Positions 17,798 to 41,434 of a stretch of DNA of 49,690 bases are shown here, in pieces. The first letter of the stretch is position 1. Every line of letters starts with the position of its first letter. The stretch covers positions 1 to 49,690 of the forward strand of contig DAOQNK010000005.1 of the NCBI GenBank assembly GCA_035332045.1. Reading direction: 5' to 3'. Source of the DNA: Thiobacillaceae bacterium (GTDB lineage Bacteria > Pseudomonadota > Gammaproteobacteria > Burkholderiales > Thiobacillaceae). Position numbers and translations under genes: made by a program. The notes under the pieces were generated by a model, which was not told where the DNA came from, made no database searches, and was given only the letters and a program-made list of their open reading frames with translations.

Positions 17798-17903
17798 AAC
17801 GATAGTGACATTTTTATGTACTTACTGTTATGGATACTATCACTTAAGTTCAATTTTTTCCTGGGCCGGCCGATAACAGATCGCCCTGCCATCCCTGGAA
17901 TCC

Positions 17904-25522: not shown

Positions 25523-26479
25523 TCAGGGGCAGAATCGGCAGTAGGGGTTGGGCTTCTTCTCGGCGTCGGGGGCCGGACTGGCTTCCACCGGAGGGAAGGC
25601 CGTCGCGCCGGATGCCGGGGTCTCCGGAGCGGTCTGGGGCGGCGCCTGGGGCGTGGGCGGCGGAGCGGGTGCCGGGGTAGCCGGCACCGGCGCGGGCGTC
25701 GACGGCGGGGTGGGGACGACGGCCGCATCCTGGACCGGCGGTTTTTCCGGGGCCCCTTGCTCCGCGGGGCCCTGCGCTTTCACCGGGGCCGGCTGGGTGG
25801 GCGCCGGCTTGGCCGGCGCGGGCGGCGGCTCCGGGACCTTGATCCCGTACTTGGCGGCCCGCCTGGCCAGGGCACGCGAGGTCGGGTCGGCGGCCAGGCC
25901 GTCCTGGATGGTTTTCTTGGCCTTTTCCTTGTCGTTCATGGCCTGGTAGGTATCCGCCAGGAGCACGTAGGCGTCCGCGTAGGTGCGGTCCTGGTTGATG
26001 GCGTTGTTGGCGGACAGGATGGCCTTGCGGTAGTCCTGCTCGTAGAGGGCGAACTGGCCGATTTCGGTATGGATCTGGGGCAGGAAGCGCCAATCCTTGG
26101 GCGCGTTTTGCAGCACGTAGTTCATGTCGCCGTAGAAGGACGCCCGGTTCTCGTCCCGCTTGGCCTTGTCGCGCTCGGCGAAATAACGATGCTTGGCGAT
26201 GATGGCCCAGCAGCGGTGGTGGATGTAGCCCGCATCCTTGGCCATCAGGTATTCGGGCCGGCTGAGGAGTTCCACGTTCTCCTTCTGCTGGTTGAAACCG
26301 TGGGCGAAGGGTTTGTCCACTAGGATCAGGCGGCAGACGGGATCCATGGCCGCATATTCGGCCGAGGAGATCTTCTGGTTGTTGACGACACCCTGGTTCA
26401 CGTCGCTCAGGGCCAGGGCCTGGGTCACGCCCATCAGAGCCGCCAGGGCCGCGGCGGCGAGCAGCAGAATAGGCTTCAT
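25523..26479 (-). CDS. Secreted TPR-like protein with a long Pro-rich tail ending in a CxxC
   Basis: The ATG at 26479 overlaps the upstream stop (ATGA). The signal peptide is MKPILLLAAAALAALMGVTQALA. A helical-repeat region follows (..DYRKAILSANNAINQDRTYADAYVLLADTYQAMNDKEKAKKTIQDGL..). The P/A/T-rich tail of about 110 aa ends in NPYCRFCP. Confidence 0.6.
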   Translation of the reverse strand: MKPILLLAAAALAALMGVTQALALSDVNQGVVNNQKISSAEYAAMDPVCRLILVDKPFAHGFNQQKENVELLSRPEYLMAKDAGYIHHRCWAIIAKHRYFAERDKAKRDENRASFYGDMNYVLQNAPKDWRFLPQIHTEIGQFALYEQDYRKAILSANNAINQDRTYADAYVLLADTYQAMNDKEKAKKTIQDGLAADPTSRALARRAAKYGIKVPEPPPAPAKPAPTQPAPVKAQGPAEQGAPEKPPVQDAAVVPTPPSTPAPVPATPAPAPPPTPQAPPQTAPETPASGATAFPPVEASPAPDAEKKPNPYCRFCP

Positions 26480-27396
26480 GACGTCTTCCCCTCCGCATGG
26501 CCGCTGAGGACCCAGTCCAGGGTGAGCTGTTCCACCCGGGCGGCCTCCCGGTGATGGGAAAAGGTGTGGTCCGCCTCGGGCAGGTGGACGATGCGGATCG
26601 CGGAATTGCGCATGGCTTTCTTCCAGCCTCCATGGTTCTTCATCAAGGCATTGAACTGGCTGGCCACGAGATCGTTCCCGCTGAGCAGGGTCAGCACCCG
26701 CCCCCGGTAGGCGCCCAGGCCGGCCAGCATGCGGTCGATGTAGCCATCCTGGCCATGGCGCGGGTCCAGGGCTGGCGCCTTGACCTCGCCGCCGCCCGCG
26801 GCCACGGCCGCCTCGCGAAAACCGCCGGCGGAATCCTTCAAATTTACGCCGCCGCTCAGCAACTTCTTCCAGAAGGCGGGCTGGAGGATACGACGCAAAT
26901 AGTAGTGCCGCAGCCGGGAACTGGCGGCGCCCTGGGGTGAATGCACCCAGGGATTGAGGAGGACCAGGGACGCCACCCGGGCATCGCCGGCGGCGTAGTA
27001 GAGGAGGGCGGAGGCGGCGTCGCACAAGCCCCACAGGGTCAGGTGCCGGACTTCCGGCGCAGCCGCGAGGAAGGCGTCGATGGCGGCCCGGAGGTCGGCG
27101 TCCACCGCCTCGAAATTGCGGAACTCGCCGCTGGCATCCCCCATGCCCCGGTAGTCGAAGCGGAAGGTGGTCACGCCTCGGCTGGCCAGGGCCCGGGCCA
27201 GCAGGGTGAACTGGCGGTGGCTGCCGGCCCGGTACTGGGGCCCCCCCACCACCACCAGGAGACCGTGGCCCGAGGGGGTGGCGGGCCGGGAAACGATCCC
27301 CGTGAGCGCCTCGCCTTCGCAGGCGAAGACCACGGGCCTTTCCCGGAAGGGCTCTCCACCCAGCCGGGCGGCGGGGAGCAGGGCATCAGCGGTCAT
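26476..27396 (-). CDS. Alpha/beta-fold protein of the 'hydrolase 1, exosortase A system-associated' type
   Basis: The sequence reads HGLLVVVGGPQYRAGSHRQF..FRFDYRGMGDASG..LTLWGLCDAASAL..LLNPW. The ATG at 27396 overlaps the upstream gene by 11 nt. Confidence 0.8.
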   Translation of the reverse strand: MTADALLPAARLGGEPFRERPVVFACEGEALTGIVSRPATPSGHGLLVVVGGPQYRAGSHRQFTLLARALASRGVTTFRFDYRGMGDASGEFRNFEAVDADLRAAIDAFLAAAPEVRHLTLWGLCDAASALLYYAAGDARVASLVLLNPWVHSPQGAASSRLRHYYLRRILQPAFWKKLLSGGVNLKDSAGGFREAAVAAGGGEVKAPALDPRHGQDGYIDRMLAGLGAYRGRVLTLLSGNDLVASQFNALMKNHGGWKKAMRNSAIRIVHLPEADHTFSHHREAARVEQLTLDWVLSGHAEGKTS

Positions 27397-28231
27397 GGCC
27401 GGTCTCCGTCGCCACCCCCAGGGCCGCCAGGGTAGGGGCCTCGAGGGCTTCGCATTCACAGATTTCCTGGGTGCCCCAGAACGGGTCGCCAGCCACCGTC
27501 GCGGTCTCCACCATCACCCCCGCGGAGCGCCAGGCCTCCACCACCCGCCGGCCAGCCGGGGCGATGTCGGGTCCCGCCTTCGCGCCCACCTCCAGCCAGG
27601 TCACCGCGCCGGCAGGGTGGATGTCAGCCAGGCGCAATCCGGCCAGGTCGCGGGCCATGGCGGGCGACAGGCCATAGCCACCCACTTCGATGACCGCACC
27701 GCCTTCGAGACTCTCGCGCAGGGCCCGGGTATCGGCCTGGGCCTTGCCGTCGGCCAGCATTTCGGACGCCAGCTTGATGCGCAGGAATTGGTTGAGGAAC
27801 AGTTCGCCGGCGGGCACGGGCTGCCAGAGCACCAGAGTCCGGGTGCCAGCCTCGGCGGCCAATTCCGCCGCCAGGGTGGCCCCCAGGCGCAGGCCCCACA
27901 AGGCCGGGGGCTCCGGCACCCTGTCCGCCAGCCAGGCCAGGGCCCGTTTGGCATCGGTGCGCCATAAACCCAGGTTGGCATCGGAGAAATCGCCGGCGCT
28001 GTCGCCACAACCCGTCAGGTCCGGCTGCAGGACGGCGAAGCCGGCGGCAGCCAGGGCGCGGGCCATTCTGGCCGCCATGCGCCGCGACTTGTGCATCTCC
28101 TCGGCGAAGGGATGCAGGTAAAGCACCGCGCCCCGGGGCGTCGTGCCGGCCGGCACGGTGTACTGGCAGAACAGCGGACCTTGGGAACCCTCCAGGAAAA
28201 AAGGCTCGATCCGGAGGCCCTCGGAGGACAC
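27386..28231 (-). CDS. Alpha/beta-fold protein of the 'hydrolase 2, exosortase A system-associated' type
   Basis: The GTG at 28231 is 1 nt after the ACP stop. The sequence reads AVLYLHPFAEEMHKSRRM..LQPDLTGCGDSAGDF..ALWGLRLGATLAAEL. Confidence 0.8.
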   Translation of the reverse strand: MSSEGLRIEPFFLEGSQGPLFCQYTVPAGTTPRGAVLYLHPFAEEMHKSRRMAARMARALAAAGFAVLQPDLTGCGDSAGDFSDANLGLWRTDAKRALAWLADRVPEPPALWGLRLGATLAAELAAEAGTRTLVLWQPVPAGELFLNQFLRIKLASEMLADGKAQADTRALRESLEGGAVIEVGGYGLSPAMARDLAGLRLADIHPAGAVTWLEVGAKAGPDIAPAGRRVVEAWRSAGVMVETATVAGDPFWGTQEICECEALEAPTLAALGVATETGHDR

Positions 28232-28232
28232 G

Positions 28233-28484
28233 TCAGCCGCCCAGCTTCTGTTCCGCGAAATCCACCAGGGTGCCCAGGGTGGCGAAGGTTTCGGCGCTGA
28301 TCTCGTCATCGCCCACGGTGATGCCGAAGTAGTCCTCCATGGCGGTGAGGATGCCCACGACCGCCATGGAATCCAGTTCGGGAATGGCGCCCAGCAGGGG
28401 CGAATCGGGAGTGAGCGCGTCGGCGCGGGGCCCCAGCTGGAGGGTCTGGGCAAGCAGGTTCCGGACGTCTTGGATGACGGACAT
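28233..28484 (-). CDS. Acyl carrier protein (phosphopantetheine-binding), exosortase-A-associated type
   Basis: 83 aa. The sequence ..LGAIPELDSMAVVGILTAMEDYFGI.. carries the DSx attachment-serine motif. Confidence 0.8.
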   Translation of the reverse strand: MSVIQDVRNLLAQTLQLGPRADALTPDSPLLGAIPELDSMAVVGILTAMEDYFGITVGDDEISAETFATLGTLVDFAEQKLGG

Positions 28485-28624
28485 GGCGGGATCGGGCAGG
28501 TTCTGGAAGGGGAAAGTGTATGCTACCGGCGCCTTCCCCCGCTATGCGGGCGGTGAGGCCCGGGCCGCCGTCGCCTACAATGCGCCCGGGGCGCCCGTGT
28601 GGCGCGCATCGAGGATTGCACGAG

Positions 28625-30211
28625 ATGACAGGTCTGGTTCACGAATTGATCTACGCCGGCGCGGCCCGCACGCCGGCGGCCCCCGCCCTGCAGGATGGCA
28701 AGACGACCCTGGATTACGCCGGGCTGGCCGGCGAGGTCTCGGCCGCCGCGAATTTCTACCTGGGCCTGGGCCTGGAGCGCTTCGAGCGCGTGGCGGTCTA
28801 CCTGGAAAAACGCCTGGACACCGTCACGGCCCTGTTCGGCGCCGCCGCCGCCGGAGGGGTGTTCGTCCCGGTGAACCCCCTGCTCAAGCCGGAACAGGTG
28901 GGCCATATCCTGGCCGACTGCAATGTCCGCATCCTGGTCACTTCACCGGAACGCCTGGAGTTGCTCCGGCCCATCCTGCCCCATTGCCGTGACCTGCGCG
29001 CCCTGGTGCTGGTGGGGGACAAGCCGGCGGCGCCGGTGGACGGTCTGGCCCTGGCCCACTGGCGGGACCGCCAAGGCGCCCCGGCGTCGGCCCCTCACCG
29101 GGTCATCGACGGCGACATGGCCGCGATCCTCTACACCTCGGGCAGCACGGGCCGGCCCAAGGGCGTGGTGCTGTCCCACCGCAACGTGGTGGCCGGCGCC
29201 GAGAGTGTCTCCCAATACCTGGAGAACACCCCGGAGGACCGTATCCTTTCCGTCCTGCCCCTCTCTTTCGATTACGGCCTGTCCCAGCTCACCACCGCTT
29301 TCCGGGTGGGCGCCTGCGCCGTGTTGATGAACTACCTCCTGCCCCGGGACGTGATCCGGGCCGTGGAGCGGGAAAGAATCACCGGTTTGGCCGCCGTTCC
29401 GCCCCTTTGGGTGCAGCTGGCCCAGCTGGACTGGCCGGCCGGGGTGACCGAGCACCTGCGCTACTTCACCAACTCCGGGGGCCACATGCCCAAGCCCACT
29501 CTGGATGGGCTGCGCGCCCGCTTGCCCAAGACCCGGCCCTTCCTCATGTACGGCCTCACCGAGGCCTTCCGGTCCACCTACCTGCCGCCCGAGGAGGTGG
29601 ACCGGCGTCCGGATTCCATGGGTAAGGCCATCCCCAACGCCGAGATCCTGGTGGTCCGGGAGGACGGCACCCCCTGCGCGCCGGGCGAGCCGGGCGAACT
29701 GGTGCATCGGGGCATCCATGTGGCCCTGGGCTACTGGAACGACCCGGAAAAGACCGCCGAACGCTACCGGCCGGCGCCGGGCCAGCTGGCCGGCCTGGTC
29801 ATTCCGGAGCTTGCCGTGTGGTCCGGCGATACGGTGCGCAAGGACGAGGATGGCTACCTCTATTTCATCGGCCGGCGCGACGAGATGATCAAGACATCGG
29901 GCTACCGGGTGAGCCCCTCCGAGGTGGAAGAGGTGGTGTATGCCACCGGCCTGGTGGCCGAGGTGGCCGCCACCGGCATCGCCCACGCCCAGCTCGGCCA
30001 GGCCGTGGTCCTGGTGGTGTACGACCCCTCGGGCGGCGCCGATGTCGCGGCCCGGCTGCTGGCGGAATGCAAGAACAAGCTGCCAGGCTTCATGGTGCCC
30101 ACCCACATCGAGGTCCGGGAAGAACCGCTGCCCCGCAACCCCAACGGCAAGATCGACCGCAAGCGCCTGGCCGGCGAACTGGCGGGCCTGTTCGAGGAGG
30201 CCGCGCCATGA
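28625..30211 (+). CDS. AMP-forming acyl-CoA/ACP ligase, exosortase-A-associated type
   Basis: I chose the ATG at 28625. The AMP-binding core is ILYTSGSTGRPKGVVLSH. Other blocks are YGLTEAF, SGDTVRKDEDGYLYFIGRRDEMIKTSGYRVSP and PRNPNGKIDR. Confidence 0.85.
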   Translation: MTGLVHELIYAGAARTPAAPALQDGKTTLDYAGLAGEVSAAANFYLGLGLERFERVAVYLEKRLDTVTALFGAAAAGGVFVPVNPLLKPEQVGHILADCNVRILVTSPERLELLRPILPHCRDLRALVLVGDKPAAPVDGLALAHWRDRQGAPASAPHRVIDGDMAAILYTSGSTGRPKGVVLSHRNVVAGAESVSQYLENTPEDRILSVLPLSFDYGLSQLTTAFRVGACAVLMNYLLPRDVIRAVERERITGLAAVPPLWVQLAQLDWPAGVTEHLRYFTNSGGHMPKPTLDGLRARLPKTRPFLMYGLTEAFRSTYLPPEEVDRRPDSMGKAIPNAEILVVREDGTPCAPGEPGELVHRGIHVALGYWNDPEKTAERYRPAPGQLAGLVIPELAVWSGDTVRKDEDGYLYFIGRRDEMIKTSGYRVSPSEVEEVVYATGLVAEVAATGIAHAQLGQAVVLVVYDPSGGADVAARLLAECKNKLPGFMVPTHIEVREEPLPRNPNGKIDRKRLAGELAGLFEEAAP

Positions 30212-31434
30212 ACGCGCCGGTCCACGCTCCCCATCTTTTCCAGGTACGGGACAACGAACTCCTCATCGGCGGCGTTCCCGTCACCCGCCTGGCCGAAAGA
30301 GCCGGACGGACGCCCTTCTATGCCTACGACCGGGCCATGCTCGGCGGCCGTGTCGCCGAATTGCGGGCAGCCCTGCCCCGGGACATCCACCTGCACTACG
30401 CCATCAAGGCCAATCCCATGCCCGCCCTGGTCCAGCACATGGCCGGGCTGGTGGATGGCTTCGACCTGGCCTCGGCGGGGGAGATGAAAATCGCCCTGGA
30501 CACCCCCATGCCGGCGGACAAGATCAGCTTCGCCGGCCCGGGCAAGTCCGAGGCCGAACTGCGCCAGGCTGCCGCGGCCGGCGTGGTGGTCAACCTGGAA
30601 TCCGAACTGGAGATGGAACGCCTGGCCCGGGCCGGCGAGGCCCTGGGACTCCGGCCCAAGGCGGCGGTCCGGGTGAACCCGGATTTCGAACTCAAGTCCT
30701 CGGGCATGAAGATGGGGGGCGGCCCCAAGCAGTTCGGCGTCGACGCCGAGCGGGTCCCCGCCATGCTGGCCCGCATGGCCGAGCTGCCCCTGGAATTCCA
30801 GGGTTTTCACATCTTCTCCGGCTCCCAGAACCTGAAGGCCGACTCCCTGATGGAGGCCCAGCGCAACACCTTCGACCTGGCGCGACGGCTGGCCGCTGCA
30901 GCGCCCGGGCCGGTGCGCCTCCTCAACCTGGGCGGCGGCTTCGGCATTCCCTACTTCCCCGGGGAACGGCGCCTGGACCTGAAGGCGGTGGGTGACCACC
31001 TGGCCGGCTTGATGCCGGCGGCCCGGGCGGACTTCCCCGAGGCGGAATTCGTCATCGAACTGGGCCGCTACCTGGTGGGCGAAGCGGGCCTCTACGTCAC
31101 CCGGGTGGTGGACCGCAAGGAATCCCGGGGACAGGTGTTCCTGGTGACCGATGGCGGCCTGCATCACCATCTGTCGGCCTCCGGCAATTTCGGCCAGGTC
31201 ATCCGCAAGAACTATCCGGTGCTGGTGGGCAACCGGGTGAACGCCGAGCAACCCGGCCAGGCCAGCGTGGTCGGCCCCCTTTGCACGCCCCTGGACCTGC
31301 TGGGGGAACGCATGGACCTGGGCCACGCCCAGGTGGGCGACCTCATCGTCGTCTTGCAATCCGGCGCCTACGGCCCCACCGCCAGCCCGGCGGCTTTCCT
31401 GGGCCACCCGCCGGCCCAGGAACTGCTGGTCTGA
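30208..31434 (+). CDS. PLP-dependent decarboxylase (Orn/DAP/Arg decarboxylase fold-III family), exosortase-A-associated type
   Basis: The start overlaps the ligase stop (ATGA). The PLP-lysine motif is HYAIKANP, the Gly-rich loop is LNLGGGFGIPY, and ..GPLCTPLD.. and SGAYG are present. Confidence 0.85.
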   Translation: MNAPVHAPHLFQVRDNELLIGGVPVTRLAERAGRTPFYAYDRAMLGGRVAELRAALPRDIHLHYAIKANPMPALVQHMAGLVDGFDLASAGEMKIALDTPMPADKISFAGPGKSEAELRQAAAAGVVVNLESELEMERLARAGEALGLRPKAAVRVNPDFELKSSGMKMGGGPKQFGVDAERVPAMLARMAELPLEFQGFHIFSGSQNLKADSLMEAQRNTFDLARRLAAAAPGPVRLLNLGGGFGIPYFPGERRLDLKAVGDHLAGLMPAARADFPEAEFVIELGRYLVGEAGLYVTRVVDRKESRGQVFLVTDGGLHHHLSASGNFGQVIRKNYPVLVGNRVNAEQPGQASVVGPLCTPLDLLGERMDLGHAQVGDLIVVLQSGAYGPTASPAAFLGHPPAQELLV

Positions 31435-31456: not shown

Positions 31457-32557
31457 ATGAATAGCGGGCCGGTCCGCCGCGCGTCGGGGAAGATGGCCTC
31501 CATCGAGGGGGCCCGGGGTATCGCCGCGATCCTGGTCGTGCTCATGCACTGCACCCACCTGATGCGGGTGGAGCAGTTCAGCGGCCATGTGGGGCTGGGC
31601 GGCATTTTCGACTTCGGTTACGTCGGGGTGGATTTCTTCTTCGTTCTCAGCGGTTTCATCATCACCTTCGTGCACCACCCCGACCTCGGGCGCTGGCAAA
31701 GCCTGCCCGTCTACCTGTGGCGACGGCTGACGCGCATCTATCCCATCTACTGGATCAGCCTGGGCATCTATATCGCGGTGGCCCTGCTGGGCCGCCTGGC
31801 CCTGGGCAAGCCCCCCGCCCTGGACATGGGCTGGTCAGACTTTCCCGCCACCGTGCTCCTCGCCATGACCGGCGAGCCCAAGTACGTGGGGGTGGCCTGG
31901 TCCCTGCAATATGAAATCGTCTTCTACCTGGCGTTCTGCCCGCTGATCCTCAGCGCCCGCCTGGGTTTCACCCTGTTCGCGGTCTGGGCCTTGGCCATCC
32001 TCCTGGCGTTGGCGGGGGGCTTCGACCCTGGCAGGGCCGGTTTCCTGTTCAATGGCCACTGCCTGGAATTCCTGATGGGGGTAGGCATCGGTCTGGCCGC
32101 CCGGAGGCTCAGGCACCGCCCTGCCTGGGCGGGGATGCTGCCGCTGGCGCTGGGCGCCTTTGTCCTGGCCGTCGTCTACGAGATGCTTCTGAGCCCGGCA
32201 CGGCATGGCGCCGATGGCCGCATTTTGTTGGGCGCCGCCTCGGCCGCCATTCTCTGGTGCCTGATCCGGCTTGAAACCGGGGGCGGCATTCGCACACCCG
32301 CCTGGCTCGGCGCGCTGGGCTCGGTGTCTTATTCGATTTACCTGACCCATGTGGTCTTCATCAACGCGACATTCAGTGTGCTCAACCTGGCCCATCTGTA
32401 TCACGCCCTTCCGGACTGGGCCGTCTTTCTGATCGGCCTGGCCGGCGGCTTGGCGGGGGCCGGCATCGTGGGATATTTCCTCGAGCTTCCCCTGGTCCGC
32501 CGCCTGAAACACCTGGTGAAGTCCCCCAGGCCCGGGCACGCGGCGGGGCGAGGCTGA
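31457..32557 (+). CDS. Acyltransferase family 3 (AT3) integral membrane O-acyltransferase
   Basis: IEGARGIAAILVVLMHC...GVDFFFVLSGFIITF...RIYPIYW, with about 10 TM segments. Confidence 0.85.
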   Translation: MNSGPVRRASGKMASIEGARGIAAILVVLMHCTHLMRVEQFSGHVGLGGIFDFGYVGVDFFFVLSGFIITFVHHPDLGRWQSLPVYLWRRLTRIYPIYWISLGIYIAVALLGRLALGKPPALDMGWSDFPATVLLAMTGEPKYVGVAWSLQYEIVFYLAFCPLILSARLGFTLFAVWALAILLALAGGFDPGRAGFLFNGHCLEFLMGVGIGLAARRLRHRPAWAGMLPLALGAFVLAVVYEMLLSPARHGADGRILLGAASAAILWCLIRLETGGGIRTPAWLGALGSVSYSIYLTHVVFINATFSVLNLAHLYHALPDWAVFLIGLAGGLAGAGIVGYFLELPLVRRLKHLVKSPRPGHAAGRG

Positions 32558-32573: not shown

Positions 32574-33347
32574 GTGCGGCTCTCCAGCCTGTCCCGGCGC
32601 GTCGCCGTGGCCATGACTGCGGCGGCTTTGCTGGCACTCCCGCAGGCTTGCCATCAAGCCTGTCCCCCCGCGCCCCGTCTGCTGATCCTGGGGGACTCCA
32701 CGGCGGCACCGCTCTCCAGGGAACCCTCCGGCCATTTTGGCTGGGGCGAGGTCCTGCCCGCCTTGCTGAACGGCGTTGCCGTGGAGAACAGGGCTCTGCC
32801 AGGGGCCAGCGCGAAAAGCTTCCTGGCGGAAGCCTGGCCCGGGATTCATGCCGGGCTCCGGCCTGGCGACGTCGTCCTCGTGCAATTCGGACAGAATGAT
32901 CCCGCGCCGGATAGCCGTCGCCATGGCGAGCCTTACGGCGCTTACCGGGAGGCCCTGGCCCGCTTCGTGGAGGACATCCGCCGGGGAGGCGGGTTGCCCG
33001 TGCTCCTCACACCGCTCGCCCGCTACCGCTTCGAAGACAACCGGCTCCAGCCGGTCCACGGCCGCTACCCCGATGCCACCCGGGCGTTGGCCGCCGATCT
33101 GCGGATCCCCCTCATCGACCTCGGCGCCTGGAGCGAGTCGGAACTGGCCAAGCTCGGTCCCGCAGGGGCCAGGGCCTGGTTCCTTAGCGAGGATGGCCGC
33201 ATGGACGGTGTCCATTTCGGCCGAACGGGCGCCCAGGCGATCGCGCTGAAAATCCAGGCGAGCCTGGCGCAACTGGCCGGGACCCATGTCCTTGTCGATC
33301 GACTCCTCCACCCTCCCGGCCGGGCCGGCGCAAGCTGCGCCCCATGA
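32574..33347 (+). CDS. SGNH/GDSL hydrolase (rhamnogalacturonan-acetylesterase-like), exported
   Basis: GTG start after GGGGAG, with an N-terminal signal. SGNH blocks: LILGDSTA (I), LPGASAKSF (II), QFGQNDP (III) and DGVHF (V). Confidence 0.8.
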   Translation: MRLSSLSRRVAVAMTAAALLALPQACHQACPPAPRLLILGDSTAAPLSREPSGHFGWGEVLPALLNGVAVENRALPGASAKSFLAEAWPGIHAGLRPGDVVLVQFGQNDPAPDSRRHGEPYGAYREALARFVEDIRRGGGLPVLLTPLARYRFEDNRLQPVHGRYPDATRALAADLRIPLIDLGAWSESELAKLGPAGARAWFLSEDGRMDGVHFGRTGAQAIALKIQASLAQLAGTHVLVDRLLHPPGRAGASCAP

Positions 33348-33362: not shown

Positions 33363-35162
33363 TCAGAGGCCCCGGTGGGCCAACCATTCCTCCAGGGTGA
33401 GCATCAACCAGATGGAGCGGCCGAAGTAGGTGGCGTGGCCGGTCATATGCTCGGACCGCACCAGGTCGATATAGGCCGGCTGGAGGATGCCCCGTCGGCG
33501 CAGGCTGGCCAGGCGGTCCTCGATGCGCTCCCGCAGCGGGGCGTAATCCCGGGCCCAGACGCCGAAGGGCAAGCCGAAGCCGTGCTTGCTCTTGTTGATG
33601 ATCTCGTCGGGCAGGAAGCCCGTCAGGGCCTTCTTGAAGAACCAGCGCAGGTACTGGCCCTTGACCTTCCAGTCGGGGGGCACCTCGCCGGAGAAGTCCA
33701 CCATGTCGTCATCCAGCAGGGGATAGCGGACTTCGATGCCGGCCGCCTCGGTCATGCCGCCCACCTTGCGCAGATCGTTGTCGGCCAGGGTGAATTTCAG
33801 GTCCAGGTGCAGCATGCGGTTGATGAAGGAATCCGAATCGGTCCGGTCGTAGACCTCCTTCAGCCATTCGGCGGGCTGGCCGGTCCTCACCGAGGCGAGG
33901 AATTCCGGCATGAACATCTCCGCCAGGGGCTGGCGGTAGATGTAGTTGTAGGACTCCATTCGCTCCGGCAGGGGAATGTTGGCCTGGCGGATGTAGCTTT
34001 GGGCCTTGCGCACCGGCGGCAGGGCCGACAGGCCGGGCAGGTTGGCCAGGGGTTCCAGCAGGCCCTTGCGCAATCCTTCGGGAATGAGCTGGTAGCGCTC
34101 GAAGACCTTCTGCTTGGCGTAACGCTCGTTGCCGCCGAAGATCTCGTCGCCGCCGTCCCCCGCCAGCATGGCACCGTAGCCGTCGGCCGCGGCCAGCCGG
34201 GCGCAGAAATAGGTGGGCACCGCCGATTCGTTGGCAAAGGGCTCGTCGTAGTGGCGCGCGATGAGGGGAATCGCCTCCAGGATGTCGGCCGGTTTCAGGT
34301 AGTACTCCCGCATGTCCAGGCCAAAGCGCCGGGCCGCGATGCGGGCATATTGAATCTCGTCGAAGCCGTTGGCGTCGAAGCCGATGGAGTAGGTCCTGGC
34401 CTGGCCGGACAGTTCCTTGAGCACGCCGCATACCGTGGAGCTGTCGGTGCCGCCGGACAGGAAGGCGGCCACCCGGCCTCCGTCCCGTGCCCGGTCCACC
34501 GACTCCCGCAGCAGGGCGTGGAAGCGTTCCGACTGGGAATCGAAGTCATCGCGGGGCTCGTCCCGATAGCGCAGGGCCCAATGGAAGCCCCGGCTGACGG
34601 TGCCGTCCTGCCACCAGGCCCATTGGCCGGGCAGGAGCTTTTCCACGCCCCGGAAAACGGCCCCGGGCGCGGGCACCTCGAAGAAATACAGATAGTTGAA
34701 GAGCCCTTGCGGATCCAGTCCGCGGCCCACCGCCGGGTGGGCCGCCACCATGTCCGCCTGGGTCGAAAACACGACGCCGGACGGGCCCGGCGCGAAGCAC
34801 AGCCGCTCGGCGCCGATCCGGTCGAGGGCGAGGAACACGCCCCGCTGGCGGCGATCGACGATGGCCAGGGCATAGTTGCCGCGCAGGTGCCGGGGCGTAT
34901 CCCGGCCGTGCCGGCGCCACAGTTCCAGCAGGGCGGCGGCCGAAACCGCGTCCTGGCGCTCCCCCGCCGGAAAGCGGGGGCGGCCGGCAACGACCGCGGC
35001 CAGTTCGCCCTCCACCGCCAGGCTGTGGCTGGCGGCCAGCCCCAGGCCGGAGTCGGCGTGGCTGTGGCCCGGGCGCGCCACGGCGCAGGTGGAAAGCATG
35101 GCGTCGAGGGTACGCGCGGCATCATCCGTGCCGTGCCCGTACCAGCCGGCGAGGCGGTGCAT
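33363..35162 (-). CDS. Asparagine-synthetase-B-family protein with a degenerate glutaminase N-terminus
   Basis: The PP-loop AFLSGGTDSS and AsnB synthetase blocks are intact (YDEPFANESAVPTYF, MLAGDGGDEIFGG, LRKV..MTEAAGIEVRYPLLD). The protein starts MHRLAGWYG instead of the MCG(I/L) nucleophile. Confidence 0.85.
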   Translation of the reverse strand: MHRLAGWYGHGTDDAARTLDAMLSTCAVARPGHSHADSGLGLAASHSLAVEGELAAVVAGRPRFPAGERQDAVSAAALLELWRRHGRDTPRHLRGNYALAIVDRRQRGVFLALDRIGAERLCFAPGPSGVVFSTQADMVAAHPAVGRGLDPQGLFNYLYFFEVPAPGAVFRGVEKLLPGQWAWWQDGTVSRGFHWALRYRDEPRDDFDSQSERFHALLRESVDRARDGGRVAAFLSGGTDSSTVCGVLKELSGQARTYSIGFDANGFDEIQYARIAARRFGLDMREYYLKPADILEAIPLIARHYDEPFANESAVPTYFCARLAAADGYGAMLAGDGGDEIFGGNERYAKQKVFERYQLIPEGLRKGLLEPLANLPGLSALPPVRKAQSYIRQANIPLPERMESYNYIYRQPLAEMFMPEFLASVRTGQPAEWLKEVYDRTDSDSFINRMLHLDLKFTLADNDLRKVGGMTEAAGIEVRYPLLDDDMVDFSGEVPPDWKVKGQYLRWFFKKALTGFLPDEIINKSKHGFGLPFGVWARDYAPLRERIEDRLASLRRRGILQPAYIDLVRSEHMTGHATYFGRSIWLMLTLEEWLAHRGL

Positions 35163-35659: not shown

Positions 35660-35777
35660 GGTGGCTCTCCTCGTCGATGCCGGGAATTCTAGCAGCCCGC
35701 GTGCAAATGAATCGCAGCCTTTACCCTTGGTGGAGGCTGATTTTCACCTCCCCGCCGCCTTCACTCCGGTGCTGGAT

Positions 35778-39244: not shown

Positions 39245-40324
39245 TTAGACGTTCCGGCGACGGCGGGCCGCCAGGCTCAGAAGCCCCAGGCCGGCCAGCA
39301 TGAGGGCATAGGTCTCAGGCTCGGGCACGGCGGCCACGTTGAGGTTCACCGCGCCGTTCTGGGCGCCAAGATAGGTGCCGATCTCGCTGTCCAGGGGATT
39401 GGAATCGCTGCTGACCAGGGCCTCGTGGGTCTCGGAATCGTATTCGCCGGCATAGGCATAAAACTCGTAGCGACGCAGGATGGAGGCGGCGTTGGGGCCA
39501 ACGGGCACGCCATAGCCGCTTTCCAGCTGGCCGGCCAGGGGGTTGCCCGGGTCGGTCTGCAACAGCTGCCATTCGATCTCGGTCACCGCCTGCTCCACCT
39601 TGGGGTTGCCGCCCACCAGTTCTTCCAGCTTGATGGGGTCTTCCAGTTCGGTGGTGAATACCTTGACCCAGATGGCATCGCCGAACTGGCTTTCCACCTC
39701 GGGCGCGGGGGCCTGGATCTGGGCCACCACCACCGGCGGCGCCCCGACCACGGGCGAGGGCGTCACGGTCCAGCTGGGCGCCGGCAGGGCCACCAATCCA
39801 TTGGTGAGCTGGCCCGGCGTGCCCGTCTCCAGCAGCCAGCTGTAGGTGGTCTTTGTAGCATTGGCGCTGGTCCCGACGCCGAAGTGGTCGCAAGGCGTGC
39901 TGGCGCTGTAGCCCAAGCCACCGCCCGACCAGCAGTTGTCGCCCGGCGTGATGAAGGTGCCGCTGGGGGTGCCGAAGGCCCAGGATTGCGTGGCGTTATC
40001 GAATGCGCTGATATAGGTCACCTTGGTGCCGAAGGTGGTGCCGTTGTTGTATTCGGTCAGGATGGGGGAGCCATAGCGTTCGACGCTGGTGGCCGGGTCG
40101 AAGCCGGTGCCCGTGGGGAAACCCCGGCCAGGACCACCGAAGGTGTCGGTGATGTCGGTGATGTGCAGGCCTTCCAGCTCGATCTCGAAACCGTGGGCAA
40201 CGGACCCCGTATCGTTGATCACATCGAAGTTGCCGAGGATGCCGATGACCTGGGCGGAAGCATGCTGGGCCGCGAAAGCCAGAGTCGCGGCGAGAGCGAG
40301 CTGGGAAAGTTTGGGCGTTTTCAT
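39245..40324 (-). CDS. PEP-CTERM-anchored secreted protein, unrecognised mature domain
   Basis: The signal peptide is MKTPKLSQLALAATLAFAAQHASA. The C-terminus VPEPETYALMLAGLGLLSLAARRRRNV has a PEP motif, a TM helix and an Arg cluster. Confidence 0.85.
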   Translation of the reverse strand: MKTPKLSQLALAATLAFAAQHASAQVIGILGNFDVINDTGSVAHGFEIELEGLHITDITDTFGGPGRGFPTGTGFDPATSVERYGSPILTEYNNGTTFGTKVTYISAFDNATQSWAFGTPSGTFITPGDNCWSGGGLGYSASTPCDHFGVGTSANATKTTYSWLLETGTPGQLTNGLVALPAPSWTVTPSPVVGAPPVVVAQIQAPAPEVESQFGDAIWVKVFTTELEDPIKLEELVGGNPKVEQAVTEIEWQLLQTDPGNPLAGQLESGYGVPVGPNAASILRRYEFYAYAGEYDSETHEALVSSDSNPLDSEIGTYLGAQNGAVNLNVAAVPEPETYALMLAGLGLLSLAARRRRNV

Positions 40325-40354
40325 GGGGGGGCCTTTTGTGTGCTGCGGGGAATA

Positions 40355-40375
40355 TTGTGTACATATTTTACACAA
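40355..40375. promoter_or_regulatory. AT-rich perfect palindrome upstream of the PEP-CTERM gene
   Basis: TTGTGTA-N7-TACACAA lies 31-51 bp upstream of the ATG, inside the only AT-rich patch of this neighbourhood. Confidence 0.3.
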
Positions 40376-40417
40376 AAATTCCCTCCTAGCAACCCCGGCA
40401 TTCCCCCCGGAGGGGGC

Positions 40418-41275: not shown

Positions 41276-41434
41276 GGGAGGCGCGGATTCGGGAAAAGGA
41301 AAATATCTCCGGCTTGCACGTCCAAGTAAAGCCTCTTACCGGGAAAAGCTGACTGGATACCGAGGGCCCATACGGACCGAAGCTCCGGGGCATTCAACCC
41401 GATTGGGTGGGGTATATCCCCCGTTTCCCCAGGC

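What the first reader, a model, noticed from the sequence alone, without database searches (positions are those of the whole stretch)
26476..31434. Exosortase-A-type ACP / acyl-ligase / PLP-decarboxylase / two-'hydrolase' cassette, detached from any exosortase or EPS genes
Two tightly coupled operons diverge from a 140-bp intergenic region (28485-28624).

- Minus strand: ACP, then 1 nt to the GTG of 'hydrolase 2', then an 11-nt overlap into 'hydrolase 1', then an ATGA overlap into a secreted TPR-like protein.
- Plus strand: AMP-forming ligase, then an ATGA overlap into a fold-III PLP decarboxylase, then an AT3 acyltransferase and an SGNH esterase.

From memory, this five-gene set (ACP, ligase, decarboxylase, hydrolase 1, hydrolase 2) was defined purely by comparative genomics as 'exosortase A system-associated' (Haft and co-workers, PEP-CTERM/EpsH work, and the TIGRFAMs families of that name). 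I know of no described product or biochemistry.

No xrtA/epsH, glycosyltransferase, Wzx/Wzy or chain-length genes occur in this 49.7-kb window. The cassette is flanked by housekeeping genes (gluQ/moaA on one side, prlC on the other). One PEP-CTERM protein gene lies 8 kb away.

Hypothesis (inference): the ligase loads a carboxylic acid onto the ACP and the decarboxylase makes an amine from an amino acid. The Cys-containing alpha/beta protein then transfers the acyl group, giving an N-acyl-amine or lipid-amine. Such a product could serve as an acceptor or modifier in exosortase-mediated sorting.
Basis: partly seen in the sequence, partly recalled or inferred. Interest (0 to 1): 0.75.

Follow-up and report, generated by a model that had tools for sequence, protein, structure and literature searches.

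The report
Exosortase-associated aminoacyl carrier-protein cassette
This is an ordinary member of a widespread, already-named but never-studied gene set; its enzymes most likely attach aspartate or glutamate to a small carrier protein, remove CO2 from it there and pass the product on, probably to a sugar polymer, and this can be tested directly.

Summary
All genes, start codons, overlaps and flanks are as described. Ligase, decarboxylase, hydrolase 1 and hydrolase 2 score well above the NCBIfam cut-offs for TIGR03098-03101. No xrtA or polysaccharide (EPS) gene lies in the 49.7-kb contig. That is a minority arrangement: 50 of 54 other genomes have EPS genes within 10 kb.

- The decarboxylase's closest solved relative is BtrK, which decarboxylates glutamate already tethered to a carrier protein (264 bits, against 156 for the best DAP decarboxylase).
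- The ligase's substrate pocket is closest to VinN. It keeps VinN's three aspartate-binding residues (D216, S284, R316), which are conserved across the family.

The likeliest chemistry is therefore Asp or Glu loaded through its side-chain carboxyl onto the ACP, then decarboxylated there to beta-alanyl- or GABA-S-ACP. Hydrolase 1 has an invariant Cys-Asp-His triad. "Hydrolase 2" has Arg at the nucleophile position in 76 of 76 sequences, so it is a pseudoenzyme. Together they probably hand the aminoacyl group on; the acceptor is unknown.

AT3 and SGNH are lineage-specific additions. The families are already catalogued, and the function is a testable prediction.

The parts
25523..26479 (-). Secreted small TPR protein (318 aa) with a signal peptide, a Pro/Ala-rich tail and a C-terminal ...NPYCRFCP. 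It is the fourth gene of the ACP operon.
   Evidence: Pfam hits TPR_19 and TPR_8. ATGA overlap with hydrolase 1. Small TPR proteins of 200-330 aa lie just downstream of hydrolase 1 on the same strand in 24 + 14 other loci (clusters C7 and C14). The CRFCP ending is shared with the nearest relatives L005-L011.
26476..27396 (-). "Hydrolase 1" (306 aa): an alpha/beta-fold enzyme with a Cys125-Asp242-His277 triad. Proposed aminoacyl transferase or thioesterase acting on the ACP thioester.
   Evidence: TIGR03100, 328.6 bits (cut-off 168.45). GLC125DA, D242 and H277 are invariant in 20 diverse homologues. Cys125 aligns with the nucleophile Ser of feruloyl-esterase-like hydrolases. AF2 model pLDDT 81.5, with only generic alpha/beta-hydrolase neighbours.
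27386..28231 (-). "Hydrolase 2" (281 aa, GTG start): a paralogue of hydrolase 1 with Arg115 at the nucleophile position and no conserved His. Predicted non-catalytic partner.
   Evidence: TIGR03101, 267.1 bits (cut-off 202.75). WGLR115LGA has Arg in 76 of 76 sequences and aligns to the GLSMG of esterases and to the GLCDA of hydrolase 1 (hhalign probability 97%). AF2 pLDDT 86.5, TM 0.73 to the PET46/feruloyl-esterase fold. The 11-nt overlap with hydrolase 1 is confirmed.
28233..28484 (-). Dedicated acyl/aminoacyl carrier protein (83 aa), with phosphopantetheine attachment at Ser39.
   Evidence: PF00550. D38-S39 are invariant in 75 of 75 sequences. It directly precedes hydrolase 2 in 74 of the 80 loci from other species. 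Best solved relative is 2lki, 85.9 bits.
28485..28624 (.). 140-bp divergent intergenic region between the ACP operon and the ligase operon.
   Evidence: Sequence read. GAGGA lies 8 nt before the ligase ATG. No sigma-70-type or TGGC-N8-TGC (sigma-54-like) match occurs in it.
28625..30211 (+). Stand-alone adenylation enzyme (528 aa), VinN-like. Predicted to load Asp (or Glu/3-methyl-Asp) through its side-chain carboxyl onto the ACP.
   Evidence: TIGR03098, 803.2 bits (cut-off 592.35). Best solved relatives are NRPS adenylation (A) domains and VinN. In the pocket core, VinN ranks first (78.8 bits, 34% identity), followed by other beta-aminoacyl-ACP synthetases. D216, S284 and R316 align to VinN Asp230, Ser299 and Arg331. 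They are conserved in 34/34, 33/34 (S/T) and 33/34 family members, and K509 in 34/34.
30208..31434 (+). Fold-III PLP decarboxylase (408 aa), BtrK-like. Predicted to decarboxylate the ACP-tethered amino acid.
   Evidence: TIGR03099, 614.1 bits (cut-off 478.45). BtrK (7ru7, 'L-glutamyl-[BtrI acyl-carrier protein] decarboxylase') scores 263.7 bits, E 2.7e-77, 38% identity over 388 residues. The best DAP decarboxylase scores 156 bits. The PLP lysine K67 is invariant. ATGA coupling to the ligase is confirmed, and the pair is always adjacent in other loci.
31457..32557 (+). AT3-family integral-membrane acyltransferase (366 aa). A lineage-specific addition to the ligase operon.
   Evidence: PF01757, 127 bits. 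It lies 22 nt after the decarboxylase. A homologue next to the cassette is found only in the same-species loci L001 and L002, and in 0 of 80 other loci.
32574..33347 (+). Secreted SGNH/GDSL esterase or transferase (likely start 32607, 246 aa), partner of AT3. Lineage-specific.
   Evidence: PF13472 and PF00657. Independent call of 246 aa. Alternative starts listed. Found next to the cassette only in L001 and L002.
33363..35162 (-). AsnB-like adenylating enzyme (599 aa) with a degenerate glutaminase domain that lacks the N-terminal Cys. A recurrent companion of ligase-decarboxylase, and not the XrtA amidotransferase TIGR03108.
   Evidence: PF00733, 275 bits; TIGR03108 only 282 bits (cut-off 817), matched from profile position 103. 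N-terminus is MHRLAGW, against MSGICGW in relatives and MCGI in true TIGR03108 members such as L072 (1025 bits). A homologue at 39-66% identity lies within 10 kb in 25 other loci, often directly after the decarboxylase. The SGGxDS motif is conserved.
39245..40417 (-). PEP-CTERM protein (context only): evidence that the organism uses an exosortase system.
   Evidence: C-terminal hits to several NCBIfam PEP-CTERM models. The tail is VPEPETYALMLAGLGLLSLAARRRRNV.

Best explanation
The locus is a genuine, intact copy of the catalogued "exosortase A system-associated" cassette. It is built from two modules.

**Module 1: ligase, ACP and decarboxylase.** This is a carrier-protein-tethered amino-acid decarboxylation unit of the VinN/VinL/VinO and BtrI/BtrK type.
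1. The adenylation enzyme activates the side-chain carboxylate of an acidic L-amino acid and thioesterifies it to Ser39-phosphopantetheine of the ACP. Aspartate is most likely; glutamate or 3-methylaspartate is possible.
2. The PLP decarboxylase then removes the free alpha-carboxylate while the substrate is still on the carrier. The product is beta-alanyl-S-ACP, or gamma-aminobutyryl-S-ACP.

**Module 2: hydrolase 1 plus hydrolase 2.** These genes are always fused to the ACP gene in one operon. Module 2 takes the aminoacyl group onto Cys125 of hydrolase 1 and passes it to an acceptor. The Arg115 pseudo-hydrolase 2 serves as a non-catalytic partner.

**Acceptor and accessory genes.**
- Elsewhere the cassette sits inside Wzy-type/XrtA polysaccharide loci, so the acceptor is most likely a cytoplasmic sugar intermediate of an exopolysaccharide.
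- In this Thiobacillaceae lineage the cassette has been moved to a housekeeping neighbourhood.
- Here it has also gained an AT3 membrane acyltransferase plus a periplasmic SGNH protein, the standard pair for acylating extracytoplasmic glycans.

**Status of the steps.** Gene content, family membership and residue conservation are shown. The substrate, the on-carrier decarboxylation, the transferase role of hydrolase 1 and the acceptor are inferred.
For: **Membership.** Four proteins score above the curated cut-offs.

**Decarboxylase.**
- BtrK is by far the best solved relative: 264 against 156 bits, 38% identity end to end, with the PLP lysine conserved.
- BtrK decarboxylates gamma-glutamyl-S-BtrI. 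VinO decarboxylates 3-MeAsp-S-VinL only after thioester formation. Deleting bolN could not be rescued by free beta-alanine.

**Ligase.**
- In the pocket core it is closest to VinN and the other stand-alone beta-aminoacyl-ACP synthetases.
- VinN residues Asp230 (amino group) and Ser299/Arg331 (alpha-carboxylate), as cited in PMC7756342, align to D216, S284 and R316.
- These are conserved in 33-34 of 34 family members and in the alphaproteobacterial copies.

**Gene linkage.**
- Ligase and decarboxylase are translationally coupled here and adjacent in every locus that has them.
- In S. meliloti pSymB-type megaplasmids and an Aureimonas plasmid, ligase, decarboxylase and ACP form a trio without either hydrolase, inside polysaccharide loci.
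- ACP-hydrolase 2-hydrolase 1 is a near-invariant operon.

**Hydrolases.**
- Hydrolase 1 has an invariant Cys-Asp-His triad.
- Hydrolase 2 has Arg at the nucleophile position in 76 of 76 sequences and is a paralogue of hydrolase 1.
- In one genome the pair sits beside a C-A-T-TE NRPS module instead (L059), again a carrier-protein context.
- Alpha/beta-fold enzymes such as CmaE and SyrC are known to shuttle aminoacyl groups from carrier proteins. That they use an active-site Cys is from my memory.

**Context.**
- 50 of 54 full-flank loci carry EPS genes within 10 kb, and 23 of 54 carry XrtA-system markers (PrsK/R/T, TIGR03013, TIGR03097, HprK-related kinase A).
- DegT aminotransferases and GNAT/FemAB-like acyltransferases often lie between the two operons in the nearest relatives.
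- One locus has a DltB-like MBOAT directly after the decarboxylase (L034).
Against: - There are no experimental data for any member of these four families.
- Over the full length, an alpha-amino-acid A domain (LgrA, 254.7 bits) outscores VinN (229 bits). Side-chain rather than alpha-carboxyl activation therefore rests on three residues and on the pocket-region ranking.
- Identity to the characterised enzymes is only 34-38%.
- In 45 of 83 loci the ligase-decarboxylase pair is not within 10 kb of ACP-hydrolase 2-hydrolase 1. The link between the two modules partly rests on co-occurrence that I could not test genome-wide.
- Structure searches give only generic esterase neighbours for both hydrolases, so transferase versus thioesterase is undecided.
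- No acceptor pathway is nearby in this genome.
- AT3/SGNH pairs normally use acetyl-CoA and may be unrelated O-acetylation genes.
Confidence: 0.55

Rival explanations
1. The ligase loads a fatty or other carboxylic acid onto the ACP, the decarboxylase makes a free amine from a free amino acid, and the Cys enzyme condenses the two into an N-acyl-amine or lipid-amine.
For: - Generic ANL (adenylate-forming) ligase hits include long-chain fatty-acid-CoA ligase models (294 bits, below cut-off).
[quoted passage not shown] 2011, cited).
- Hydrolase 1 has a Cys nucleophile suited to acyl transfer.
Against: - The ligase has the invariant amino-group-binding Asp (SFD216) and VinN's carboxylate-binding Ser and Arg. 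Its best solved relatives are amino-acid adenylation enzymes, not fatty acyl ligases.
- The decarboxylase is BtrK-like, a type that acts on a carrier-tethered substrate.
- No N-acyl amino acid synthase (TIGR03694-type) gene is in the window.
Confidence: 0.08
2. A Dlt/Alm-like aminoacylation system without on-carrier decarboxylation. The ligase loads an ordinary alpha-amino acid through its alpha-carboxyl onto the ACP for transfer to an envelope polymer. The decarboxylase works separately on a free substrate, such as a DAP-, Orn- or Lys-type amino acid, to supply a precursor.
For: - The best full-length solved hit is an alpha-amino-acid A domain (LgrA, 254.7 bits), and DltA is also detected (111.5 bits).
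- The window has a membrane acyltransferase (AT3) plus a periplasmic SGNH protein, analogous to DltB plus DltD.
- L034 has a DltB-like MBOAT after the decarboxylase.
- The decarboxylase also hits lysA at 230 bits.
Against: - The decarboxylase is much closer to BtrK than to any free-substrate decarboxylase (264 against 156 bits).
- Ligase and decarboxylase are translationally coupled and always adjacent.
- VinN's alpha-carboxylate-binding Ser and Arg are conserved, which makes sense only if a free alpha-carboxylate remains on the loaded substrate.
- AT3, SGNH and MBOAT are rare add-ons: 0, 0 and 1 of 80 other loci.
Confidence: 0.13
3. The same carrier-tethered logic with a different substrate. 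meso-Diaminopimelate, or another long diamino-dicarboxylate, is loaded by one end and its distal centre is decarboxylated, giving lysyl-S-ACP or a related basic aminoacyl-ACP.
For: - After BtrK, the decarboxylase's next relatives are all DAP decarboxylases. These act on the distal D-centre of DAP (general knowledge).
- An Arg at Stachelhaus-type pocket position 330 could bind a distal carboxylate (inference).
Against: - The pocket region is most like VinN, whose Ser299 and Arg331 bind the carboxylate on the same carbon as the amino group.
- No evidence bears on pocket depth, and the point cannot be settled from sequence.
Confidence: 0.07
4. The cassette supplies a beta-aminoacyl starter unit to a polyketide or non-ribosomal assembly line encoded elsewhere, as in vicenistatin or bolagladin. 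Its link to polysaccharide and exosortase genes is incidental.
For: - All characterised relatives (Vin, Bol, Btr) feed secondary-metabolite pathways.
- One locus (L059) has hydrolase 1 and hydrolase 2 next to a C-A-T-TE NRPS module.
Against: - No PKS or NRPS gene is in the window. Among the large ORFs tested near the cassette, only L059 was an NRPS.
- 50 of 54 loci are polysaccharide loci.
- There is no VinM-like second adenylation enzyme and no VinK-like acyltransferase.
Confidence: 0.05

Closest known systems
NCBIfam/TIGRFAMs "exosortase A system-associated" set: TIGR03098 ligase, TIGR03099 decarboxylase, TIGR03100 hydrolase 1, TIGR03101 hydrolase 2, plus an adjacent ACP
   Same: All four proteins exceed the curated cut-offs. 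The operon structures ACP-hydrolase 2-hydrolase 1 and ligase-decarboxylase match 70+ and 30+ other loci. NCBI already gives these names to near-identical (cluster-mate) proteins in Thiobacillaceae MAGs.
   Different: Here the set is not embedded in an XrtA/EPS locus, unlike 50 of 54 other genomes. It lacks the DegT/GNAT genes that separate the two operons in its nearest relatives. It has gained AT3 and SGNH genes. These are 'hypothetical equivalog' families with no assigned chemistry.
VinN / VinL / VinO (vicenistatin) and BolO / BolC / BolN (bolagladin): beta-aminoacyl-ACP starter-unit modules
   Same: All have a stand-alone adenylation enzyme, a stand-alone ACP and a PLP decarboxylase. VinN's Asp230, Ser299 and Arg331 are conserved as D216, S284 and R316. 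In those systems decarboxylation happens on the carrier.
   Different: Identity is only about 34% in the pocket core. There is no VinM, VinK or VinJ equivalent and no PKS/NRPS acceptor. Instead there is a Cys alpha/beta enzyme with a pseudo-hydrolase partner, and the usual context is polysaccharide genes.
BtrI / BtrJ / BtrK (butirosin side-chain pathway)
   Same: BtrK is the closest solved relative of the decarboxylase (263.7 bits, 38% identity over 388 residues). It decarboxylates an amino acid thioesterified through its side-chain carboxyl to an ACP. The final acceptor in butirosin is a sugar-derived molecule (an aminoglycoside).
   Different: From memory, BtrJ is an ATP-grasp ligase and not an ANL adenylation enzyme. 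The transfer enzymes BtrH and BtrG have no counterpart here.
Dlt (DltA/DltC/DltB/DltD) and AlmE/F/G: carrier-protein-dependent aminoacylation of envelope polymers
   Same: All pair a DltA-like adenylation enzyme with a small carrier protein. In this window there is also a membrane acyltransferase plus a periplasmic SGNH-type protein downstream. L034 has a DltB-like MBOAT in that position.
   Different: Dlt and Alm have no decarboxylase. The membrane enzyme here is AT3, not MBOAT. AT3 and SGNH are absent from all 80 other loci. The resemblance is functional and does not amount to membership.
CmaE / SyrC aminoacyl shuttles (alpha/beta-hydrolase fold)
   Same: Both are alpha/beta-fold enzymes that take an aminoacyl group from a carrier-protein thioester and pass it on rather than hydrolysing it. 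From memory, they use an active-site Cys, as hydrolase 1 does (Cys125).
   Different: Those enzymes transfer to a second carrier protein, and no second carrier is present in this locus.
Exosortase-linked N-acyl amino acid synthases (Craig, Cherry and Brady 2011)
   Same: This is another small-molecule acyl/amino-acid enzyme family found by genomics next to PEP-CTERM/exosortase loci.
   Different: It is a different protein family (GNAT-like synthase using acyl-ACP). None is present in this window. That paper was not readable here.

Membership tests
Exosortase A system-associated cassette (TIGR03098-03101) | Ligase scores above the TIGR03098 curated cut-off | tested here: met
   803.2 bits against 592.35, full-length match 1-516/517.
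Exosortase A system-associated cassette (TIGR03098-03101) | Decarboxylase scores above the TIGR03099 cut-off and lies next to the ligase | tested here: met
   614.1 bits against 478.45. ATGA overlap with the ligase.
Exosortase A system-associated cassette (TIGR03098-03101) | Hydrolase 1 and hydrolase 2 score above the TIGR03100 and TIGR03101 cut-offs and follow an ACP gene in one operon | tested here: met
   328.6 against 168.45 and 267.1 against 202.75 bits. The order ACP-hydrolase 2-hydrolase 1, with a 1-nt gap and an 11-nt overlap, is confirmed. The same order occurs in 74-76 other loci.
Exosortase A system-associated cassette (TIGR03098-03101) | The genome encodes exosortase A (XrtA) and PEP-CTERM proteins | tested here: inconclusive
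   One PEP-CTERM protein lies at 39245-40417. No xrtA is in the 49.7-kb contig or within 10 kb in the same-species 892-kb contig. The rest of the genome could not be read.
Exosortase A system-associated cassette (TIGR03098-03101) | Usual location inside or beside the XrtA/EPS gene cluster | tested here: not met
   None of 18 EPS/XrtA marker proteins is found in the window, L001 or L002. By contrast 50 of 54 other loci have at least one marker, and 23 of 54 have an XrtA-specific one. This is a context feature and not an HMM criterion.
VinN/VinL/VinO-type carrier-tethered amino-acid decarboxylation module | Stand-alone adenylation enzyme with VinN's Asp230, Ser299 and Arg331 equivalents | tested here: met
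   D216, S284 and R316 align to these residues (residue roles from PMC7756342). They are conserved in 34/34, 33/34 and 33/34 family members.
VinN/VinL/VinO-type carrier-tethered amino-acid decarboxylation module | Stand-alone carrier protein with a phosphopantetheinyl serine | tested here: met
   PF00550. D38-S39 are invariant in 75 of 75 sequences.
VinN/VinL/VinO-type carrier-tethered amino-acid decarboxylation module | BtrK/VinO-type PLP decarboxylase | tested here: met
   BtrK scores 263.7 bits, E 2.7e-77, 38% identity. The next best solved hit is a DAP decarboxylase at 156 bits. K67 is invariant.
VinN/VinL/VinO-type carrier-tethered amino-acid decarboxylation module | Decarboxylation takes place on the ACP-bound substrate | not testable with these tools
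   Requires an in vitro assay with loaded ACP.
VinN/VinL/VinO-type carrier-tethered amino-acid decarboxylation module | Downstream second adenylation enzyme, VinK-type acyltransferase and a PKS/NRPS acceptor | tested here: not met
   None is in the window. Among the large ORFs tested in related loci, only L059 has an NRPS module.
Dlt-type D-alanylation system | DltB MBOAT and DltD next to the DltA/DltC pair | tested here: not met
   The window has AT3 (PF01757) and SGNH, not an MBOAT. The only MBOAT seen (L034) scores 178.6 bits, below the DltB cut-off of 375.
XrtA/PEP-CTERM system amidotransferase (TIGR03108), for the AsnB-like gene 33363-35162 | Score above the cut-off and an N-terminal Cys nucleophile (MCG...) | tested here: not met
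   282.2 bits against 816.9, and the match starts at profile position 103. The N-terminus is MHRLAGW. A true member, L072, scores 1024.8 bits and is only about 30% identical.
CmaE/SyrC aminoacyl-shuttle alpha/beta enzymes, for hydrolase 1 | Sequence or structural relatedness to CmaE or SyrC | not tested
   No CmaE or SyrC sequence or structure was available in the tools. Only the shared fold class and the Cys nucleophile are known.

The most novel reading that the evidence does not exclude
The cassette installs an omega-aminoacyl group (beta-alanyl or gamma-aminobutyryl) on the exopolysaccharide repeat unit. Its free primary amine is the nucleophile that exosortase A uses to attach cleaved PEP-CTERM proteins covalently to the polymer. 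That would make it the Gram-negative counterpart of the FemXAB-built pentaglycine bridge used by sortase. It would also explain why these genes track XrtA genomes, and it would identify the long-sought acceptor of exosortase.
Probability: 0.1. Interest if true: 0.9.

Novelty: new member of a known kind. Interest (0 to 1): 0.45.

Why it matters
The exosortase/PEP-CTERM system has been known from genomics since 2006. It is needed for floc and biofilm formation in wastewater and environmental bacteria, yet neither its chemistry nor its acceptor molecule is known.

This cassette is one of its most widespread accessory modules. Hydrolase 1 relatives occur in at least 594 species-representative genomes. 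So far the module has been only a set of names.

The homology found here turns those names into a concrete experiment that takes days rather than years: load aspartate or glutamate on the ACP, then watch for a 44-Da loss.

It also shows that "hydrolase 2" is misnamed, because it has no nucleophile. And it shows that ligase, decarboxylase and ACP form a self-standing unit that also serves polysaccharide loci with no exosortase gene nearby, as on *S. meliloti* pSymB-type megaplasmids.

For this particular window the result is modest. It is a normal, intact copy in an unusual neighbourhood.

Tried and rejected
1. **Exact-sequence look-up of the window's decarboxylase.** Nothing was on record. I switched to the 99%-identical hydrolase 1.
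2. **Promoter search in the 140-bp spacer.** There was no sigma-70-type hit and no TGGC-N8-TGC match. The TGGCGC...TTGCA just before the ligase ATG has the wrong spacing for sigma-54.
3. **Structure prediction and Foldseek for both hydrolases.** The models are good, but only generic feruloyl-esterase, lipase or PET46-like neighbours came back (TM 0.55-0.73). This gives no functional clue beyond the fold.
4. **Literature.** No paper with biochemistry for TIGR03098-03101 was found. Haft 2006 does not mention the cassette. Craig 2011 and Miyanaga 2014 are not held, so VinN residue roles are taken from PMC7756342.
6. **First ORF clustering of related loci.** Some genes in high-GC loci were mis-called as shadow ORFs, including the window's decarboxylase. 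Counts for cassette genes therefore come from tblastn.
7. **TIGR03108 membership of the AsnB-like gene.** Considered and rejected.
8. **Horizontal-transfer island.** Considered and rejected as unsupported. GC content is uniform, there is no tRNA, and no integrase or transposase family was hit in the ORFs scanned with NCBIfam.
9. **The unknown 250-aa family C16 and the alphaproteobacterial hypothetical upstream of the ligase.** No significant Pfam hit was found. C16 has only a faint GNAT match at E 0.049.

Full report
**1. What is in the sequence**

The window has about 67% G+C. It is a complete 49,690-bp contig of a Thiobacillaceae metagenome-assembled genome.

Minus strand:
- The ACP lies at 28233-28484 (ATG to TGA).
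- One base then separates it from the GTG of hydrolase 2 (27386-28231).
- Hydrolase 2 overlaps hydrolase 1 (26476-27396) by 11 nt.
- The hydrolase 1 stop overlaps the ATG of a signal-peptide-bearing TPR protein (25523-26479) as ATGA.

Plus strand, after a 140-bp spacer:
- The ligase lies at 28625-30211 and overlaps the decarboxylase (30208-31434) by ATGA.
- An AT3 acyltransferase (31457-32557) follows after 22 nt.
- An SGNH protein comes next.

Independent gene calls on two other assemblies of the same species give identical lengths. The exception is SGNH, called at 246 aa from GTG 32607.

**2. Family membership**

Against NCBIfam:

| Protein | Model | Bits | Cut-off |
|---|---|---|---|
| Ligase | TIGR03098 | 803.2 | 592.35 |
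| Decarboxylase | TIGR03099 | 614.1 | 478.45 |
| Hydrolase 1 | TIGR03100 | 328.6 | 168.45 |
| Hydrolase 2 | TIGR03101 | 267.1 | 202.75 |

The ACP matches only the generic PF00550. NCBI already gives the names "hydrolase 1/2, exosortase A system-associated" to near-identical proteins (same 90%-identity clusters) in Thiobacillaceae MAGs.

**3. Surroundings in the window**

I scanned all sizeable ORFs of the window with NCBIfam.
- On one side lie gluQ, moaA, mobB, a histidine kinase, a PAS-GGDEF-EAL protein and chrBA.
- On the other side lie a DUF4124-glutaredoxin, prlC, a gamma-carbonic anhydrase, a PEP-CTERM protein (39245-40417, tail VPEPETYALMLAGLGLLSLAARRRRNV), a thioredoxin-TPR protein, purB, recR and dnaX.

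There is no xrtA, glycosyltransferase, flippase, polymerase, chain-length regulator or PrsK/R/T.

It is an asparagine-synthetase-like protein of 599 aa (PF00733, 275 bits). It hits the XrtA amidotransferase model TIGR03108 at only 282 bits (cut-off 817), and it lacks the N-terminal Cys.

**4. How unusual the detachment is**

Hydrolase 1 belongs to a very large family. Of 8000 scored candidates, 7992 reached E <= 1e-10. I fetched 80 loci with up to 10 kb on each side.

tblastn with the window's proteins gave these counts over all 83 loci, three of which (L001-L003) are same-species copies:
- ACP-hydrolase 2-hydrolase 1 is a near-invariant trio (hydrolase 2 in 79 and ACP in 77 of 83).
- Ligase and decarboxylase are always adjacent to each other, and lie within 10 kb of the trio in 36-38 of 83.
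- A homologue of the AsnB-like protein is nearby in 27.
- AT3 and SGNH homologues occur only in the same-species loci.

I clustered the neighbouring ORFs and annotated representatives. The usual company is:
- TIGR03013 glycosyltransferase
- PrsK, PrsR and PrsT
- the TIGR03097 O-antigen-ligase-like protein
- HprK-related kinase A
- MOP flippases
- GT4 and GT2 enzymes
- polysaccharide deacetylases
- DegT aminotransferases
- GNAT (Acetyltransf_6) proteins
- rmlB and UDP-sugar dehydrogenases

Of 54 loci with full flanks:
- 50 carry at least one such marker.
- 23 carry an XrtA-system-specific marker.
- 4 carry none (L019, L020, L060, L074).

The window and its two same-species relatives also carry none. 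xrtA itself (TIGR03109, 336 bits) lies within 10 kb in only two loci. Detachment is therefore real and uncommon (about 7% of the sampled species) but not unique. The Zoogloea locus L060 sits between a molybdopterin oxidoreductase and a CHAT protein, and L074 sits next to a PAS-GGDEF-EAL protein.

**5. The decarboxylase**

Against all solved structures, the best match by a wide margin is BtrK, deposited as "L-glutamyl-[BtrI acyl-carrier protein] decarboxylase". It scores 263.7 bits, E 2.7e-77, aligned over residues 18-407 at 38% identity. The best diaminopimelate decarboxylase scores 156 bits. The PLP lysine (K67) and the HHH and CTP motifs are invariant in the family.

BtrK decarboxylates an isoglutamyl thioester on its ACP. 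VinO, the PLP-dependent decarboxylase of vicenistatin biosynthesis, acts on 3-methylaspartyl-VinL and requires the thioester to be formed first. In bolagladin biosynthesis, deleting the BtrK-like bolN could not be rescued by free beta-alanine (PMC7756342 and PMC11284099).

**6. The ligase**

Over its full length the best solved relatives are NRPS adenylation domains (LgrA, 254.7 bits) and a 541-aa stand-alone enzyme, 3wvn (229 bits).

I then searched only the substrate-pocket core (ligase residues 169-345). There 3wv4/3wvn rank first (78.8 bits, 34% identity). They are followed by "putative ATP-dependent beta-aminoacyl-ACP synthetase" entries and two further stand-alone enzymes.

I take 3wvn to be VinN from memory. 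An internal check supports this. With a constant offset of 16 residues for an expression tag, the published Asp230, Ser299 and Arg331 fall exactly on D, S and R of the chain.

According to PMC7756342, Asp230 recognises the amino group and Ser299/Arg331 recognise the alpha-carboxyl group of beta-methylaspartate, whose beta-carboxyl is the one adenylated. These three residues align to D216, S284 and R316 of the window's ligase.
- Across 34 family members they are D in 34/34, S or T in 33/34, and R in 33/34.
- The catalytic K509 is present in 34/34.
- The same motifs occur in the alphaproteobacterial copies.

A carboxylate-binding Ser/Arg pair next to the amino-binding Asp makes sense only if the loaded substrate keeps a free alpha-carboxylate. 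That is exactly what a BtrK-type decarboxylase needs.

**7. The two "hydrolases"**

- Hydrolase 1 has an invariant GLC125DA nucleophile elbow, D242 and H277. Cys125 aligns with the serine of feruloyl-esterase-like enzymes.
- Hydrolase 2 is a paralogue of hydrolase 1 (hhalign probability 97%). Its elbow reads WGLR115LGA, with Arg in 76 of 76 sequences. It has no conserved histidine in the C-terminal half.
- Both fold confidently as alpha/beta hydrolases (pLDDT 81.5 and 86.5). Their neighbours are only generic esterases.

"Hydrolase 2" therefore cannot work as a canonical hydrolase. Translational coupling to hydrolase 1 suggests an active/inactive heterodimer.

A Cys nucleophile on this fold, encoded in one operon with a carrier protein, fits an aminoacyl-transfer role of the CmaE/SyrC kind (the Cys in those enzymes is from my memory). 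In locus L059 the pair sits next to a C-A-T-TE NRPS module instead of the ACP, which again places it in a carrier-protein context. Transfer versus simple thioester hydrolysis remains undecided.

**8. Modularity**

A tblastn of the ligase against plasmids found 285 records. They include 76 Sinorhizobium records; those listed are megaplasmids of 1.6-2.0 Mb (59% identity). An Aureimonas plasmid matches at 60%.
- In *S. meliloti* the order is hypothetical, ligase, decarboxylase, ACP, GT2, polysaccharide deacetylase. This lies inside a cluster of glycosyltransferases, glf, a sulfotransferase and a type I secretion system.
- In Aureimonas the trio sits in a Wzz/tyrosine-kinase, translocase and O-antigen-ligase-family locus.
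- Neither locus has hydrolase 1 or hydrolase 2.

Ligase, decarboxylase and ACP are thus a self-standing unit plugged into polysaccharide loci. The hydrolase pair is an additional handler typical of the XrtA-type loci.

In the window's nearest relatives, a DegT sugar aminotransferase and multi-GNAT/FemAB-like proteins lie between the two operons. That hints at an amino-sugar acceptor. One locus has a DltB-like MBOAT directly after the decarboxylase.

In the window that position is taken by AT3 plus a signal-peptide SGNH protein, the usual two-part machine for acylating glycans outside the cytoplasm. Whether it handles the ACP-borne group or simply acetylates is unknown.

**9. The AsnB-like gene**

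This gene belongs to a paralogue family distinct from TIGR03108. True members start MCGI and score above 1000 bits. The companion type starts MSGICGW, or MHRLAGW here with the Cys lost. It scores 234-294 bits.

It follows the decarboxylase on the same strand in at least eight loci and keeps the SGGxDS ATP-pyrophosphatase motif. I read it as an amide-forming adenylating enzyme whose role in the pathway is unknown.

**10. Verdict**

- The family assignment and the detachment are correct.
- The proposed N-acyl-amine mechanism is not supported.
- The best-supported mechanism is on-carrier decarboxylation of side-chain-tethered Asp or Glu to beta-alanyl- or GABA-S-ACP. The Cys enzyme and its pseudoenzyme partner then hand the group off, most likely to a polysaccharide intermediate.

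Everything beyond gene content, scores and residue conservation is inference from enzymes that are 34-38% identical.

The families are already catalogued and this copy is a normal member, so novelty is low. The value lies in a sharp, cheap experimental test for a widespread unknown module. There is also a small chance that the module supplies the amine acceptor for exosortase.

Noticed in passing
window 25523-25550 (C-terminal end of the TPR protein gene, minus strand); L005-L011: The secreted TPR protein ends in ...NPYCRFCP after a long Pro/Ala/Gln-rich linker. The same CRFCP ending is kept in the nearest relatives (L005, L006, L007, L008, L010, L011) but not in the other small TPR proteins downstream of hydrolase 1. 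It is a conserved terminal CxxC-type motif of unknown role.
   Followed up: partly
L084 (S. meliloti RCAM1750 plasmid p_2, 78789-104264) and L085 (Aureimonas sp. AU20 pAU20a, 181968-207521): Ligase, decarboxylase and ACP occur as a trio without hydrolase 1 or hydrolase 2 in polysaccharide loci of Alphaproteobacteria. 76 Sinorhizobium plasmid records match; those listed are 1.6-2.0-Mb megaplasmids. A conserved unannotated protein of 228/289 aa (62% identical between the two, no Pfam hit) sits directly upstream of the ligase. In this S. meliloti strain the decarboxylase matches in two reading frames.
   Followed up: partly
L007, L015, L017, L025, L028, L034, L035, L054, L057, L076, L080 and others (cluster C16): An unknown protein family of about 250 aa lies directly next to the cassette in 12-15 loci, either heading the ligase operon or preceding the ACP. 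It has no significant NCBIfam or Pfam hit, only a faint GNAT match at E 0.049. It is absent from the window.
   Followed up: partly
L059:3091-6942: In one uncultured proteobacterium, hydrolase 1 and hydrolase 2 lie beside a single-module NRPS (C-A-T-TE, 1283 aa) instead of the usual ACP.
   Followed up: no
L034:3333-4859: A DltB/AlgI-like MBOAT (178.6 bits to the DltB model, below cut-off) directly follows the decarboxylase. This is the same position as AT3 in the window.
   Followed up: no
window 33363-35162 and L006, L011, L026, L033, L060, L077 and others: The AsnB-like companions form a family with no NCBIfam model of their own. Their N-terminus is M-x-G-(I/L)-C-G-W, with Cys at position 5 rather than 2. 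In the window's branch the Cys is replaced by Ala or Trp.
   Followed up: partly
window 8787-8843 (+): An nhaA-I RNA (Rfam RF03057, 45.4 bits) lies at the 5' end of the NhaD-type Na+/H+ antiporter ORF (8776-10230).
   Followed up: no
window 47776-47873 (-): A bacterial small SRP RNA (RF00169, 76.3 bits) lies just upstream of dnaX (46025-47698).
   Followed up: no
window 35660-35777 versus L001:230-1669: The same-species 892-kb contig has a 479-aa FG-GAP_2 protein gene between prlC and the DUF4124-glutaredoxin gene. The window has only a 118-bp spacer there, so this is a strain-level insertion or deletion.
   Followed up: no
window 40418-41335 (-) and 39245-40417 (-): A thioredoxin domain fused to a TPR region, with a weak match to the PrsT model, lies immediately upstream of the PEP-CTERM gene with no gap between them. 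The two may be co-transcribed.
   Followed up: no
window 17877-21098 (+); L074:13442-17794: A large multi-PAS GGDEF-EAL protein lies about 4.4 kb from the TPR gene at the end of the ACP operon. Another 'detached' copy of the cassette (L074) is also flanked by a PAS-GGDEF-EAL protein. This may be coincidence.
   Followed up: no
window 43404-44936 (-), 10713-11720 (-), 14629-15168 (-): These ORFs have strong coding signal (GC3 0.79-0.86) but no NCBIfam match at the thresholds used.
   Followed up: no
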